DNA of 37,535 nucleotides, taken from IMG/VR virus record IMGVR_UViG_2681813154_000004; one strand, written 5' to 3'. Below, one piece after another: positions 1,715-4,157 of this stretch (within the stretch, counting starts at the first letter, position 1; each line of letters starts with the position of its first letter). The notes beneath the pieces were generated by a model. It did not search any database and was not told the origin of the DNA. It worked only from the letters and a program-made list of their open reading frames with translations. This stretch comes from a virus. Taxonomy: Duplodnaviria > Heunggongvirae > Uroviricota > Caudoviricetes. Made by a program: the position numbers and the translations under genes.

Positions 1715-2077
1715 TTAACGACCTGCTGCGCGGAGTTTTCCGTCAGGTTCACCGGCAAGAGTCAGTAACTGTCCCTGGTCTTCCTGCAGAATAGTCAGGC
1801 GACCACCGCGATTGACATACATCGGCGTTTCGGTGGTGTCTTCTTCGGAAATTTTCCCGCGGTTAGTCGGGCGAACATATGAGAGTTTGTGTTTGATTTT
1901 CACTCGGTTCTCATCAAACGGTTCGATTTCCAGGTTGAGCGAGACCTTACCTTTGGTTTTCGTGTTCATCACACCGGAAGCGACTTCACTGAGAACTGCG
2001 CCGATTTTGGTTTCAAATACGCCGCCGTCCAGCTCCCCGATAAATGCCTGCACATCAGTACTGCGTTCGCTAGCCAT
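1715..2077 (-). CDS. yfdP: YfdP-like small prophage protein (120 aa)
   Basis: Internal ATG (MASERSTDVQAF...) with GAGGAG RBS inside track ORF 1715..2395; the upstream extension is Arg-rich junk. Confidence 0.65.
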   Translation of the reverse strand: MASERSTDVQAFIGELDGGVFETKIGAVLSEVASGVMNTKTKGKVSLNLEIEPFDENRVKIKHKLSYVRPTNRGKISEEDTTETPMYVNRGGRLTILQEDQGQLLTLAGEPDGKLRAAGR

Positions 2078-2545
2078 TTTGCTGCTCCTCATCATATCGA
2101 CCCTGCAAGGTCGGTTAGTTTCTCCACAAAACAGAGAAGAACACCTGCGGTGACTGCCGCCCGGATGGATTGGGTTATGAGCCCGTCGTCCGGTGATGCT
2201 CTTCTCTGTTTTGTAAAAAGGACGGTACCAGCCGGAAGCAAGGGTACAAGCTGGTACCGCCAAGACTACACACAGCATAAAGTTGTGGTGCCGGGTGCCT
2301 CCCGGTGCCTGGCGAAGGTTGCACACCAGGCGGGTGGGTATCCACAGAAGGTCGACTGTCAGCCTCAACCTTAACCCGCGTGCGCTGAGCCGCATTCACC
2401 ACAACGCTAAGGATTCTCTCTGGTTGAAAATACTTAGCTGTTATGTGCCTGCTTTTAGCCACATCAGGCGAGGTGGACCTAGTTATTCCCCAACAACAAG
2501 GATTCGGTTAATCTGGTTATCCCCAACAACGCAAAAGGAAAAGAA

Positions 2546-2980
2546 ATGTCCGGTAATATCTATACGCTGTACAAATCCCACTGTGAAAATGTTGGAAAGT
2601 ATCGGGGCATTGAAATCAGTGGGGTAGTGTCATCAGTCGAAATAAGCAAAGTTGAATCAAGGGCAACATTACTTACTCTTTTGGACCTTGTCTTACATGA
2701 GCACCGGAAGAAATTCGGCACTCCCTATAATCAGTTGAATGGGAAAAAGGCTCTGGTTCACCTTATTCTGATGAAGCATCACTGGATGCCAAAACAGATT
2801 AATGAGATGAAATTTGATGAACTTCTTCTTTCAATTCAGGATGAACTCACACTTGATAAAATAAGCGTAACCGCCCAGAAATTTTTAGATTATCGAGACT
2901 GGAGATCACAAATTCATCACTTTGATGATTTTGACGAAAATGAATGGGATCCTAATTTGTCTGCACAATATCTAAAGTAA
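2546..2980 (+). CDS. Hypothetical 144-aa soluble protein, AT-rich accessory gene
   Basis: Long ORF in an AT-rich stretch, ATG with AAGGAAAAG RBS, direct repeats upstream, intrinsic terminator downstream; no family recognised. Confidence 0.6.
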   Translation: MSGNIYTLYKSHCENVGKYRGIEISGVVSSVEISKVESRATLLTLLDLVLHEHRKKFGTPYNQLNGKKALVHLILMKHHWMPKQINEMKFDELLLSIQDELTLDKISVTAQKFLDYRDWRSQIHHFDDFDENEWDPNLSAQYLK

Positions 2981-3158
2981 CATCCTGTGATAAAACCGTG
3001 ATTTCCTGATCCAGTTTTTTTAAGGAGTCTATTGTTTCCTGTCGATAAGACAGCACTTCACGAAGCTGGTTTATAGCTGCCAGCTTCTTTGTCATCCACT
3101 CATAAATTTCCTCATCTGTGTAGCCAGGCGCGACGATTTTGGGTTCTGTTTTGTGCAT
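2952..3158 (-). CDS. Hypothetical 68-aa protein, first gene downstream of the pL-like promoter
   Basis: ATG at 3158 (MHKTEPKIVAPGYTDEEIYEW...) with GAGGAG RBS 7 nt upstream; track ORF 2952..3173 begins at an in-frame TTG; overlaps the 3' end of the 144-aa ORF by 29 bp. Confidence 0.5.
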   Translation of the reverse strand: MHKTEPKIVAPGYTDEEIYEWMTKKLAAINQLREVLSYRQETIDSLKKLDQEITVLSQDVTLDIVQTN

Positions 3159-3217
3159 TTCACATCTCCTCAAGTTATCAGTTACTTGTTGATGGGGACC
3201 AGATTGTTAAAGAGCTA

Positions 3218-3240
3218 AGCGTCCTGTAGGGCGCTTTTTT
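3218..3240 (+). terminator. Intrinsic terminator (7-bp stem with one G-U pair, TGTA loop, T6 run)
   Basis: AGCGTCC-TGTA-GGGCGCT followed by TTTTTT. Confidence 0.55.
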
Positions 3241-3319
3241 GTTGCTAACGAATCATCCTGGACTTCATATGCCCCAGGCGGCTACTTCGTGGGCGTCCTG
3301 CCTGTTCGTTGTTTCGCTT

Positions 3320-3355
3320 GGGTACATTATGTATCTCAAAGGTACATTGTCAAGT
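3320..3355 (-). promoter_or_regulatory. pL-like leftward promoter with overlapping operator half-sites
   Basis: On the minus strand: TTGACA (3353..3348), 16-bp spacer, CATAAT (3331..3326); GGTACA half-sites at about 3322-3327 and 3341-3346. Confidence 0.5.
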
Positions 3356-3357
3356 AT

Positions 3358-3380
3358 AAAAAAACCTGCCGAAGCAGGTT
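3358..3380 (-). terminator. Intrinsic terminator downstream of cI
   Basis: Minus-strand hairpin ACCTGC-TTCG-GCAGGT followed by a run of 7 U, 14 nt after the cI stop. Confidence 0.6.
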
Positions 3381-3392
3381 CATAAACATTGA

Positions 3393-4067
3393 TTAGGCTT
3401 TGATTTTGTATCTTCTTGGTTTTCCTGAGAAAATCACTGTACCAATTATAGAGCAATTACCGTTGATCTTAATGTAAGGCTCAGGCCAGTTTGGGTTTAA
3501 CGCTTTGAGATAACGCTGTGTCCCATCTTCTATCAACCTTTTGAAGGTGGTTTCGCCTGTATCGTGCATCAATGCAATAACGTCGTCACCGTGGCAGGCA
3601 GGTACTTCAGGATCGACAAAAATCATGTCTCCCGGGCGGTACTCATCAATCATTGAATCACCTATCACCCGCAAGATATAAGTCATTTCCCCACAGGGTA
3701 CAGGGCAGGGATACGTTTCTGCTGTGCTCAAATCAACCTCAGAATATCCAACTTCTTTCCATGCTCCGGCCTGTACCCATGATATGACAGGGACTAATGT
3801 GATTTGTTTATTAGTGATTGAAACATCAGGTTTTTTTGTGATGTTCGTTGTCTGGTGTTCTTGATCGAGCCATCCGACAGGCAGGTCGAAACATTTTTCG
3901 ATGTGTCGTGCCATGCTGTCACCGATATTTTTAGTAGCACCATCTCCCATAAACCTGCTGGTCTGGGTTGGCTCGCGATCAATCATAGTGGCAAAGGAAG
4001 AATTCCCGCCAACACCATCTCTCAGTTTTCTGGCGTTAGACCGCCGGATGTCATGGATTGTTTTCAT
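3393..4067 (-). CDS. cI: CI-type prophage repressor, LexA/S24 peptidase family
   Basis: N-terminal HTH region, Ala-Gly cleavage site (VQAGAW), S24 Ser (GDSM) and Lys (TFKRL); divergent from the cro-like gene. Confidence 0.9.
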   Translation of the reverse strand: MKTIHDIRRSNARKLRDGVGGNSSFATMIDREPTQTSRFMGDGATKNIGDSMARHIEKCFDLPVGWLDQEHQTTNITKKPDVSITNKQITLVPVISWVQAGAWKEVGYSEVDLSTAETYPCPVPCGEMTYILRVIGDSMIDEYRPGDMIFVDPEVPACHGDDVIALMHDTGETTFKRLIEDGTQRYLKALNPNWPEPYIKINGNCSIIGTVIFSGKPRRYKIKA

Positions 4068-4157
4068 AACGAAATTAAAACCCTTGTACCGTTAAGGTAC
4101 AAGTATCTTGAAGGTTCATTTCAATCATGTAATATGTACACCGGAGGTACATATTGT
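4068..4157. promoter_or_regulatory. OR-like operator/promoter region (pRM leftward, pR rightward)
   Basis: 21-bp palindrome CTTGTACC-GTTAA-GGTACAAG (4083-4103); palindrome ATGTAC-N7-GTACAT (4134-4152); pR candidate TTGAAG (4108-4113) and TAATAT (4130-4135); TTTAAT -10 just upstream of the cI ATG. Confidence 0.6.

What the first reader, a model, noticed from the sequence alone, without database searches (positions are those of the whole stretch)
2462..3260. Convergent, 3'-overlapping gene pair of unknown function in the accessory slot beside cI
A 144-aa ORF (2546..2980, +) sits in an AT-rich stretch with a good RBS, two direct repeats just upstream (GTTATTCCCCAACAAC at 2482-2497 and GGTTATCCCCAACAAC at 2515-2530) and an intrinsic terminator at 3218-3240. 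Its 3' end overlaps by 29 bp a 68-aa coiled-coil-like ORF (2952..3158, -) that is the first gene after the pL-like promoter. Each transcript must run antisense through the other gene, so the pair is wired for mutually exclusive lysogen versus lytic expression. I recognise neither protein. The position corresponds to where lambdoid phages carry exclusion or defence genes (rexAB, sieB).
Basis: partly seen in the sequence, partly recalled or inferred. Interest (0 to 1): 0.7.

Follow-up and report, generated by a model that had tools for sequence, protein, structure and literature searches.

The report
Conserved convergent prophage accessory gene pair
Next to the repressor gene of an SfIV-like prophage sit two small genes of unknown function that face each other and overlap at their ends. 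The same pair recurs in prophages of E. coli, Salmonella, Klebsiella, Yersinia and Pectobacterium, so it is a portable, probably lysogen-expressed accessory module rather than a chance arrangement.

Summary
The window is an SfIV/SfV-type lambdoid prophage. Positions 2477-3246 are a 770-bp swappable cassette between the pL-like promoter and the early-left genes.

- **The two proteins.** The 144-aa protein belongs to the uncharacterised "ECs1072 family" (NCBIfam NF033230, PHROG 5286). Its model is all-alpha, with no fold or defence-database match. The 68-aa protein is a YdfC-like single long helix.
- **New result.** This convergent, 3'-overlapping pair (29-194 bp) recurs in at least 9 diverged loci and in two, perhaps three, genomic slots: after pL, between Q and holin, and possibly after cro. 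Both genes are under purifying selection and co-diverge.
- **Expression.** Published RNA-seq shows that the ST64B member (STMMW_20121) is transcribed from its own start site in lysogens, antisense to the lytic genes. Its partner is also transcribed in those lysogens, so strict mutual exclusion is not general.
- **Repeats.** The direct repeats are part of a leader word that also occurs, inverted, in front of the 68-aa gene. Unrelated cargo genes in the same slot share it.

Function is inferred, not shown. The most likely reading is a lysogen-expressed accessory or exclusion protein with a tightly linked partner made from the lytic operon. No promoter for the 144-aa gene is recognisable.

The parts
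2477..3246 (.). Swappable 770-bp cassette holding both genes, their leaders and the + strand terminator
   Evidence: Homology with SfV stops at 2476 and resumes at 3247. The whole cassette is present in 408 of 5,426 complete E. coli genomes. Other genomes keep only its first ~54 bp and last ~79 bp around different cargo.
2482..2530 (+). Two direct copies of the leader word GTTAT(T)CCCCAACAAC (2482-2497 and 2515-2530) in an unstructured CA-rich 5' leader
   Evidence: The leader fold has z +1.6, i.e. it is unstructured. Unrelated cargo genes in L003 and L004 and a 34%-identical homologue in L020 share it.
2535..2539 (+). Shine-Dalgarno AAGGA of the 144-aa gene
   Evidence: Read directly from the sequence. 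Sequence divergence between cargoes begins just after 2530, so the RBS belongs to the cargo.
2546..2980 (+). 144-aa all-alpha protein of the ECs1072 family, oriented antisense to the pL operon
   Evidence: NF033230 scores 157.8 bits against a cut-off of 70. PHROG 5286, E 1.5e-90. An exhaustive HMMER search found 76 clusters, nearly all single-domain proteins of about 145-155 aa. dN/dS is 0.09-0.27. The AlphaFold model has pLDDT 82 and pTM 0.82.
2952..3158 (-). 68-aa acidic YdfC-like protein (one long helix); first ORF of the pL transcript
   Evidence: PHROG 1744, E 6e-35. About 40% identity over 66 aa to YdfC of Qin-type phages. dN/dS is 0.18-0.42. The model shows a helix at residues 15-67. 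pI 4.8.
2952..2980 (.). 29-bp 3' overlap of the two coding regions
   Evidence: An overlap of 29-194 bp is present in every locus that has the pair.
3062..3087 (+). 9-bp hairpin followed by UUUGU, inside the 68-aa gene; a possible first stop for the + strand transcript
   Evidence: -15.6 kcal/mol, z -3.1.
3186..3205 (-). Third, inverted copy of the leader word (AATCTGGTCCCCATCAACAA) in the 5' leader of the 68-aa gene
   Evidence: Inverted repeat with 2510-2529. The left and right copies vary together between cassettes.
3217..3236 (+). Intrinsic terminator ending the 144-aa gene's transcript just before pL
   Evidence: The + strand mRNA therefore carries the antisense of the entire 68-aa gene and its RBS.
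3326..3353 (-). pL-like promoter with an embedded operator dyad (3329-3347)
   Evidence: 11 of 12 consensus positions. The dyad is shared with the cI-cro intergenic region.
3362..3381 (-). Terminator of the cI transcript
   Evidence: SfV annotates a terminator at the equivalent place.
3393..4067 (-). cI-type repressor (LexA-like S24 domain); context, not part of the cassette
   Evidence: Pfam PF00717, E 1.5e-26. Annotated as cI in SfIV and SfV.

Best explanation
Positions 2477-3246 are a portable two-gene accessory cassette (a "moron") of lambdoid prophages.

**Shown**
- Gene 1 (144 aa, ECs1072 family) is read against the direction of the repressor-controlled pL operon. Its transcript ends at an intrinsic terminator just short of pL.
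- Gene 2 (68 aa, YdfC-like long helix) is the first ORF of the pL transcript.
- The two coding regions overlap at their 3' ends. This convergent, overlapping arrangement recurs across diverged phages and in different genomic slots.
- The + strand mRNA carries the antisense of all of gene 2. The pL transcript must read antisense through gene 1 to reach yfdP, yfdQ and yfdR.

**Inferred by homology**
- Gene 1 is expressed in the lysogen from its own start site, as measured for the ST64B member.

**Inferred from position and linkage only**
- Gene 1 gives the lysogen an accessory benefit, most likely exclusion of or interference with other phages.
- Gene 2 is made when a lytic promoter fires. It cancels or modulates gene 1, as a protein, through convergent transcription and antisense pairing, or both, so that the prophage's own lytic growth is spared.
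- The 3' overlap keeps the two genes genetically inseparable.
For: - **Family membership.**
- **Real coding genes.** dN/dS is below 0.45 for both genes in every informative pair.
- **Pair conservation.**
  - An HMM built from clear YdfC-like partners, searched against all 2,636 ORF segments of the fetched loci, picks out only the convergent partners in Pectobacterium, ST64B, Yersinia and the Klebsiella phage (E 0.001-0.012). The next hit has E 8.7.
  - Profile-profile comparison gives E 9.5e-6.
  - New IMG/VR loci L019-L023 all carry the pair beside an S24 or HTH repressor.
- **Different slots.** The pair lies between Q and holin in ST64B and Klebsiella phage KPP5665-2. In metagenome locus L025 the ECs1072-like gene lies downstream of cro with a convergent overlapping ORF; that ORF resembles the partner only by motif and the partner HMM did not detect it.
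- **The partner belongs to the cassette.** The partner disappears with gene 1 when the same backbone carries another cargo.
- **Co-divergence.** Mantel r 0.87; 1 of 5,000 permutations reached it.
- **Lysogenic expression.**
  - STMMW_20121 has the same coordinates and length as the ST64B ORF. It has its own TSS and 60-270 TPM in 16 of 17 conditions, against 0.3-33 TPM for the flanking holin (PMC7067206).
  - The Sakai ECs1072 gene gives a significant signal in uninduced cultures (PMC2241611).
- **Slot character.** SieB lies beside the Yersinia homologue. The cassette is AT-rich and has a + strand terminator.
Against: - No promoter is recognisable upstream of gene 1 in the window.
- In ST64B lysogens the partner is also at 23-258 TPM, so it is not lytic-only there.
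- The pair is not obligatory. ECs1072-like genes occur without a partner in L006 and L015. YdfC occurs without an ECs1072 gene in Qin-type phages.
- The E. albertii allele has a frameshifted partner tail and shows recombination between the two genes.
- No phenotype data exist in the searched literature.
Confidence: 0.45

Rival explanations
1. Reversed roles. The YdfC-like protein is the active early-lytic effector, a host-directed and mildly toxic pL-proximal protein of the same kind as its Qin neighbours DicB and DicF. The ECs1072 protein, together with its full-length antisense 3' UTR, is a safety catch in the lysogen that neutralises leaky expression of that effector.
For: - The + strand mRNA covers the whole 68-aa gene and its RBS in antisense.
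- Both genes are transcribed in ST64B lysogens, as expected for an inhibitor and its target.
- YdfC sits in the dicBF operon of division inhibitors (PMC5069750).
- Partner transcript levels rise 1.5-2.5-fold under inducing shocks while gene 1 does not rise.
Against: - Qin-type phages carry YdfC with no ECs1072 gene.
- ECs1072-like genes exist without a partner.
- No toxicity of YdfC is reported in the papers read.
Confidence: 0.2
2. The two proteins have unrelated functions. The YdfC-like gene is simply the usual first gene of this type of early operon. The ECs1072 gene is a moron that lodges antisense in the long untranslated stretch behind it. The recurrence of the pair reflects linkage and horizontal spread of one DNA block.
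For: - The Qin layout of ydfC, an sRNA-bearing untranslated stretch and dicB resembles the window's layout of ydfC-like gene, antisense gene 1, STnc100-like RNA and yfdP.
- Linked genes co-diverge regardless of function (caveat).
- Recombination between the two genes is seen in E. albertii.
Against: - The pair also occurs in the Q-holin slot, and possibly behind cro, rather than only behind pL.
- The partner is lost together with gene 1 in alternative cassettes on the same backbone.
- A 3' overlap is kept in every pair despite about 20-35% protein identity.
Confidence: 0.2
3. The unit is mainly a transcriptional device of the lysis-lysogeny switch. Convergent transcription from gene 1 dampens leaky pL transcription, and pL dampens gene 1 in return, as with the face-to-face promoters of coliphage 186 and P2. 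On this reading the proteins are secondary.
For: - Convergent units with no terminator between the two ORFs.
- Type-B loci (Yersinia, Pectobacterium, L022, L023) have no terminator before pL.
- The leader word is shared by both genes.
Against: - Both proteins are under purifying selection with invariant residues.
- The window has a strand-specific terminator that stops + strand transcription before pL.
- The pair also works outside the immunity region, in the Q-holin slot.
Confidence: 0.1

Closest known systems
STMMW_20121 / STMMW_20131 locus of Salmonella prophage ST64B (Owen et al. 2020, PMC7067206)
   Same: It is the same two protein families: the ECs1072-like ORF matches the profile at E 5e-42 and the partner at E 2.5e-3. 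The genes are convergent with a 71-bp 3' overlap, and the ECs1072-like gene is antisense to the lytic genes. It was experimentally shown to be transcribed from its own start site in lysogens and was proposed as an accessory or regulatory gene.
   Different: It lies between the Q-like gene and holin rather than beside cI. Identity to the window protein is only about 32%. Its partner is longer (85-119 aa) and is also transcribed in lysogens. The paper does not describe the pairing or the family. Function is unknown there too.
sieB of phages lambda and P22 (with esc and the sas antisense RNA)
   Same: From my own knowledge: sieB is a lysogen-expressed exclusion gene embedded in the pL region, and self-protection by a second product and antisense RNA control are described for P22. 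Shown here: a SieB gene sits beside the Yersinia homologue.
   Different: There is no sequence or domain similarity (no PF14163 hit). SieB is a membrane protein, and the 144-aa protein has no hydrophobic segments. Esc is an internal product of sieB, not a convergent gene.
BstA / aba (prophage defence with cognate self-immunity, PMC8585504)
   Same: It is a repressor-adjacent gene that is highly expressed in lysogens. Its TPM profile is similar to that of STMMW_20121 in the same data set. It also embodies the idea that a prophage defence needs a linked self-immunity element.
   Different: There is no homology. BstA is larger (from my own knowledge). Its immunity element is a DNA site inside the gene, not a convergent protein-coding gene.
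YdfC in the dicBF operon of the Qin prophage (ydfA-ydfB-ydfC-dicF-dicB)
   Same: The 68-aa protein is about 40% identical over its full length. It is also a promoter-proximal gene of a repressor-controlled early operon, followed by an untranslated stretch with an sRNA-like element.
   Different: Qin-type loci have no ECs1072 gene. YdfC's own function is unknown (PMC5069750).
Type I toxin-antitoxin pairs with convergent 3'-overlapping transcripts (for example txpA/ratA and bsrG/SR4 in B. subtilis prophage-like elements)
   Same: Convergent transcription units overlap at their 3' ends and sit in prophages. They offer the potential for duplex RNA and mutual control.
   Different: Both partners here encode conserved soluble proteins. 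There is no small hydrophobic toxin and no non-coding antitoxin.

Membership tests
ECs1072 family phage-associated protein (NCBIfam NF033230 / PHROG 5286) | Whole-protein score above the curated cut-off over the full profile | tested here: met
   157.8 bits against a cut-off of 70, covering profile positions 2-142 of 142. PHROG 5286, E 1.5e-90, full length.
YdfC-like small proteins (PHROG 1744; Qin YdfC) | Full-length sequence similarity to YdfC, including the N-terminal (E/D)P.II.AP.YT.EE.Y.WM motif | tested here: met
   tblastn gives 39-41% identity over residues 1-66, E 2e-9. The motif is aligned in A6. PHROG 1744, E 6e-35.
YdfC-like small proteins (PHROG 1744; Qin YdfC) | Promoter-proximal position in a repressor-controlled early operon | tested here: met
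   It is the first ORF after the pL-like promoter that carries the operator dyad.
Moron (autonomous accessory unit in a phage genome; Juhala/Hendrix sense) | Own terminator and atypical base composition; present or absent between conserved flanks | tested here: met
   Terminator at 3217-3236. GC is 0.34-0.43 against 0.54-0.58. The cassette is replaced in SfV and in other E. coli genomes.
Moron (autonomous accessory unit in a phage genome; Juhala/Hendrix sense) | Own promoter, expressed in the prophage state | tested here: inconclusive
   No sigma-70-like site was found upstream in the window. The ST64B homologue has a mapped TSS and about 100 TPM in lysogens.
SieB superinfection exclusion (PF14163) | Match to the SieB domain | tested here: not met
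   Neither protein has a Pfam hit at E below 0.1 apart from a non-significant NICE-3 hit.
Known anti-phage defence systems (PADLOC-DB v2, including RexAB, Abi and PD systems) | Match to any component model | tested here: not met
   No families match either protein at E up to 1.
Type I toxin-antitoxin with 3'-overlapping convergent RNAs | Small hydrophobic toxin peptide plus a non-coding antisense RNA | tested here: not met
   Both ORFs are conserved, hydrophilic and under purifying selection. Only the convergent 3' overlap is shared.
Type II toxin-antitoxin | Co-directional bicistronic operon with a DNA-binding antitoxin | tested here: not met
   The genes are convergent. There is no HTH, RHH or AbrB hit.
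Invertible (site-specific inversion) switch bounded by inverted repeats | Both orientations of the segment found in natural genomes | tested here: not met
   A 120-nt query for the inverted junction finds no place covering 80% or more of the query in 5,426 complete E. coli genomes.
HD-domain phosphohydrolase | H...HD...D metal-binding motif and a significant fold match | tested here: not met

The most novel reading that the evidence does not exclude
The ECs1072-like and YdfC-like pair is a previously unrecognised two-component prophage immunity module. A lysogen-expressed effector with a new all-alpha fold blocks incoming phages. Its cognate neutraliser is encoded convergently, with overlapping 3' ends. 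The two therefore cannot be separated by recombination, and lytic-promoter firing switches effector expression off and neutraliser expression on in one step.
Probability: 0.3. Interest if true: 0.7.

Novelty: new variant of a known kind. Interest (0 to 1): 0.5.

Why it matters
- **Prevalence.** The cassette is in about 7.5% of complete E. coli genomes. Relatives occur in Shigella, Salmonella (ST64B, common in S. Typhimurium), Klebsiella, Yersinia and Pectobacterium prophages.
- **No assigned function.** Neither protein has a known function, fold relative or defence-database entry.
- **A testable two-gene candidate.** Showing that the two genes travel together, always convergent and overlapping, turns an anonymous hypothetical protein into a defined candidate for prophage-encoded exclusion with self-immunity, or for a new lysis-lysogeny control device.
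- **An annotation gap.** The ST64B and Klebsiella phage records do not annotate the ECs1072-like ORF.

Tried and rejected
**Searches that gave nothing**
- Literature searches by accession, locus tag and family name found no functional study.

- The afdb50 library was not available.
- Alignment-based locus searches failed for lack of a conserved stretch. Two single-protein scans found nothing.
- Brenes & Laub 2025 is not held in the library.

**Ideas rejected**
- An HD-domain idea, prompted by several weak HD hits. There is no HD motif among the conserved residues.
- An invertible-segment idea, prompted by the inverted repeat 2510-2529 / 3186-3205. No inverted allele exists in 5,426 genomes.
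- The direct repeats as gene-specific operator sites. The same leader precedes unrelated cargo genes and the opposite gene.

**Left open**
- Promoter search on the + strand, both with the standard scan and with a relaxed custom scan, found none.
- A CsrA/Hfq-site reading of the two ACAAGGA/AAGGA motifs was considered but not tested.
- The locus in Yokenella (L024) is disrupted by an IS element and is uninformative.
Full report
**1. Where we are**

The window is 98% identical over 2000-3500 to Shigella phage SfIV and is mosaic with SfV. The local order on the - strand is yfdR-like, yfdQ (DUF2303) and yfdP. A GC-rich structured spacer follows, then the finding. After that come the pL-like promoter, the cI terminator and cI (S24 domain). 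Cro and a CP76-type CII lie on the + strand.

**2. Observation**

- ORF 2546-2980 (+) with AAGGA 6 nt upstream.
- The two direct repeats.
- The + strand terminator at 3217-3236.
- ORF 2952-3158 (-) with GAGGAG 7 nt upstream.
- The 29-bp overlap.
- The pL-like promoter at 3353-3326.

The promoter encloses the dyad ATGTAC-N7-RTACAT at 3329-3347. The only other perfect copy in 37.5 kb lies between cI and cro at 4134-4152 (expected 0.28). Calling this promoter a repressor-controlled pL is therefore justified. The cassette is AT-rich relative to its left flank. The terminator hairpin is strand-asymmetric and has a U-run only on the + strand.

There are three additions.
- A third, inverted copy of the repeat word lies at 3186-3205.
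- A second strong + strand hairpin lies at 3062-3087.
- There is no recognisable + strand promoter, even at relaxed thresholds.

**3. The two proteins**

The 144-aa protein:
- It is a full-length member of NCBIfam NF033230, "ECs1072 family phage-associated protein" (157.8 bits, cut-off 70), and of PHROG 5286. Neither family has a known function.
- An exhaustive profile search found 76 clusters at 50% identity. Nearly all are single-domain proteins of about 145-155 aa.
- In an alignment of 40 members only H72 and W134 are invariant. R54, G66, A69 and W80 are nearly so, and the C-terminus carries an acidic (D/E)EW(D/N)P motif.
- Pfam, PADLOC and PDB sequence-profile searches are empty.

The 68-aa protein:
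- It belongs to PHROG 1744 and is about 40% identical over its full length to YdfC of Qin-type prophages.
- It is acidic (pI 4.8).
- It is predicted to be one long helix preceded by a 14-residue extended N-terminus.

Both genes are under purifying selection. dN/dS is 0.09-0.27 for the ECs1072-like gene and 0.18-0.42 for the partner.

**4. The pair is a conserved unit**

This is the main new result. In distant family members the ECs1072-like gene is again met at its 3' end by a convergent small ORF on the opposite strand. That ORF has the N-terminal motif (E/Q)P.(I/F)..(P)G.T.EE...W(L/M) followed by a helical stretch.

| Locus | Partner length | 3' overlap |
|---|---|---|
| Window | 68 aa | 29 bp |
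| E. albertii (L007) | frameshifted tail | 64 bp |
| IMG/VR L019 | 87 aa | 95 bp |
| IMG/VR L020/L021 | 64 aa | 29 bp |
| IMG/VR L022 | 75 aa | 62 bp |
| IMG/VR L023 | 85 aa | 95 bp |
| Yersinia (L010-L012) | 117 aa | 194 bp |
| Pectobacterium (L013/L014) | 119 aa | 194 bp |
| Salmonella phage ST64B (L017) | 85-119 aa | 71 bp |
| Klebsiella phage KPP5665-2 (L018) | 85-118 aa | 95 bp |

- **Homology of the partners.**
  - An HMM built only from the clear YdfC-like partners was searched against all 2,636 stop-to-stop ORF segments of every fetched locus. Beyond its own relatives it recovered only those convergent partners (E 0.001-0.012). The next hit has E 8.7.
  - Profile-profile comparison gives 83% probability, E 9.5e-6.
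- **The unit changes address.**
  - In most loci it sits between a cI-type repressor and the early-left genes.
  - In ST64B and the Klebsiella phages it sits between the Q-like gene and holin, where the ECs1072-like ORF is not annotated.
  - In metagenome locus L025 the ECs1072-like gene lies behind cro, again facing a convergent ORF that overlaps it by about 197 bp. That ORF resembles the partner only by motif, and the partner HMM did not detect it.
  - In every case the ECs1072-like gene is antisense to a lytic or repressor-controlled operon, and the facing ORF is co-directional with that operon.
- **The partner belongs to the cassette.**
  - On the window's own backbone the slot holds other cargoes: a 171-aa ORF in strain Ec-U1, a 167-aa ORF in TUM13867, and orf33 in SfV.
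  - The YdfC-like gene is absent from those.
- **Co-divergence.** Partner divergence tracks ECs1072-like divergence (Mantel r 0.87; 1 of 5,000 permutations). Linked genes are expected to co-diverge, so this is weak evidence on its own.
- **Exceptions.**
  - L006 and L015 have the ECs1072-like gene without a partner.
  - Qin-type phages have YdfC without an ECs1072 gene.

**5. Expression evidence from the literature**

Owen et al. [quoted passage not shown] Their Table S5 gives these positions:
- STMMW_20121: 2090066-2090500 (435 bp), directly after the holin.
- STMMW_20131: 2090430-2090789, a 71-bp overlap.

These are exactly the geometry and lengths of the ECs1072-like ORF and sb50 in my ST64B locus. 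The ST64B ORF matches the family profile at E 5e-42.

| Gene | TPM across the 17 conditions |
|---|---|
| STMMW_20121 (ECs1072-like) | 60-270 in 16 of 17; 4.9 in late stationary phase |
| STMMW_20131 (partner) | 23-258; highest under peroxide and nitric oxide shock, when lytic genes come on |
| Holin | 0.3-33 |
| STMMW_20141 | 1.5-7 |

The family is therefore lysogen-expressed. In that phage, however, the partner is expressed too. In E. coli O157 Sakai, ECs1072 itself changes significantly in uninduced cultures (PMC2241611).

**6. The repeats and the cassette borders**

- The region from 2477 to about 2530, containing both direct repeats, is shared by cassettes with unrelated cargo. The region from about 3168 to 3246, containing the inverted copy and the terminator, is shared in the same way.
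- Divergence between cargoes starts just after 2530, so the RBS belongs to the cargo.
- The word AATCT(G/T)G..CCCCA.CAAC precedes the RBS of the + strand gene. In inverted orientation it precedes the RBS of the first - strand ORF.
- Its left and right copies change together between cassettes: GGT/GGT in the window, GGAT/GGAT in L020 and L003, and CTT/CTT in L004.
- The leader is unstructured.
- No inverted allele of the cassette exists in 5,426 E. coli genomes.

I read the repeats as a shared leader or junction element. They could be a recombination linker, a common regulator site, or a 5'-3' RNA pairing element. They are not operators specific to the 144-aa gene. Which of these they are remains open.

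**7. Mechanism**

Shown:
- A portable two-gene cassette.
- Convergent coding regions with 3' overlap.
- A + strand terminator placed so that the gene 1 mRNA is antisense to all of gene 2.
- Gene 2 as the first ORF of an operator-bearing pL.
- Lysogenic transcription of a family member.

Inferred:
- Gene 1 is a lysogen-expressed accessory protein, most plausibly interfering with other phages. The grounds are the repressor-adjacent and Q-holin moron slots, a SieB neighbour in Yersinia, and a TPM profile like that of bstA in the same data set.
- Gene 2, produced when a lytic promoter fires, counteracts gene 1 as a protein, by transcriptional collision or antisense pairing, or both.
- The overlap locks the two genes together.

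I put this reading at about 0.45. The rivals are a reversed "safety catch" model (0.2), functional independence with mere linkage (0.2), and a mainly transcriptional switch device (0.1).

**8. Comparison with known systems**

- The closest described object is the ST64B STMMW_20121 locus itself. It belongs to the same families, and its function is also unknown.
- In logic the module resembles lambda and P22 sieB (with esc and sas), BstA with aba, and type I toxin-antitoxin pairs with overlapping 3' ends.
- The defining features of each of these were tested and not met (see the membership table).
- It fits the moron definition except that its promoter could not be found in the sequence.

**9. 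Verdict**

This is a real, conserved and widespread feature with no assigned function. I rate it a new variant of a known kind (prophage moron or accessory locus), with interest 0.5.

Noticed in passing
window 2212-2435 (-): STnc100-like structured RNA (RF02076, 43.4 bits against a gathering score of 47, E 3e-8 on the local stretch). It ends in a hairpin plus U-run on the - strand. It lies in the untranslated part of the pL transcript between the ydfC-like gene and yfdP, which mirrors ydfC-dicF-dicB in Qin. SfV has it at the same place (39.5 bits). At the equivalent place L020 has a DicF-like hit (34 bits) and L023 has a tRNA.
   Followed up: partly
window 2447-2476: Possible H-type pseudoknot: GCCTG (2447-2451) pairs with CAGGC (2465-2469), and CCAC (2459-2462) pairs with GTGG (2473-2476). 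It is conserved, with variable loop lengths, upstream of ECs1072-like genes in Yersinia, Pectobacterium and IMG/VR loci, and also in SfV, which lacks the gene. The strand and the function are undecided, and no covariation statistics were run.
   Followed up: partly
window 2126-2140 and 2200-2214: 15-nt perfect inverted repeat (ACAAAACAGAGAAGA / TCTTCTCTGTTTTGT) forming a long hairpin just upstream of the yfdP start. RefSeq annotates a frameshifted hypothetical pseudogene across this non-coding stretch.
   Followed up: no
window 3015-3021 (T7 on +, A7 in the 68-aa gene): Homopolymer run inside the 68-aa gene. The E. albertii allele has one extra base, which gives an 85-aa frameshifted tail. Several database variants of 77-82 aa exist, so the C-terminal third of the partner is variable or slippage-prone.
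   Followed up: partly
window 3245-3319 (-), pL leader: The 5' leader of the pL transcript (..GTAGCCGCC.GGGGC..CC(A/G)GGATGATTCG..) is conserved across all pL-slot loci, including distant Yersinia and Pectobacterium phages. These phages have no N gene, so it may be a cis-acting RNA element.
   Followed up: no
L003 2571-3086, L004 2571-3074 and 2914-3207, L002 3679-3975: Alternative cargoes of the same slot in other E. coli prophages. They are a 171-aa coiled-coil protein with a C-terminal Cys-rich motif, a 167-aa protein with a convergent overlapping 97-aa ORF, and SfV orf33. None has a significant Pfam or PADLOC hit.
   Followed up: partly
L017 2845-3279 (ST64B) and L018 2818-3291 (Klebsiella phage KPP5665-2): The ECs1072-like ORFs of these deposited phage genomes are not annotated. 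In the ST64B GenBank record only sb50, on the opposite strand, is called.
   Followed up: yes
L002 6065-6253 (SfV): SfV carries IsrK (64 bits) and C4 antisense RNA (82 bits) matches downstream of its cII-like gene. No such hits occur in the first 6 kb of the window, which has different genes there.
   Followed up: no
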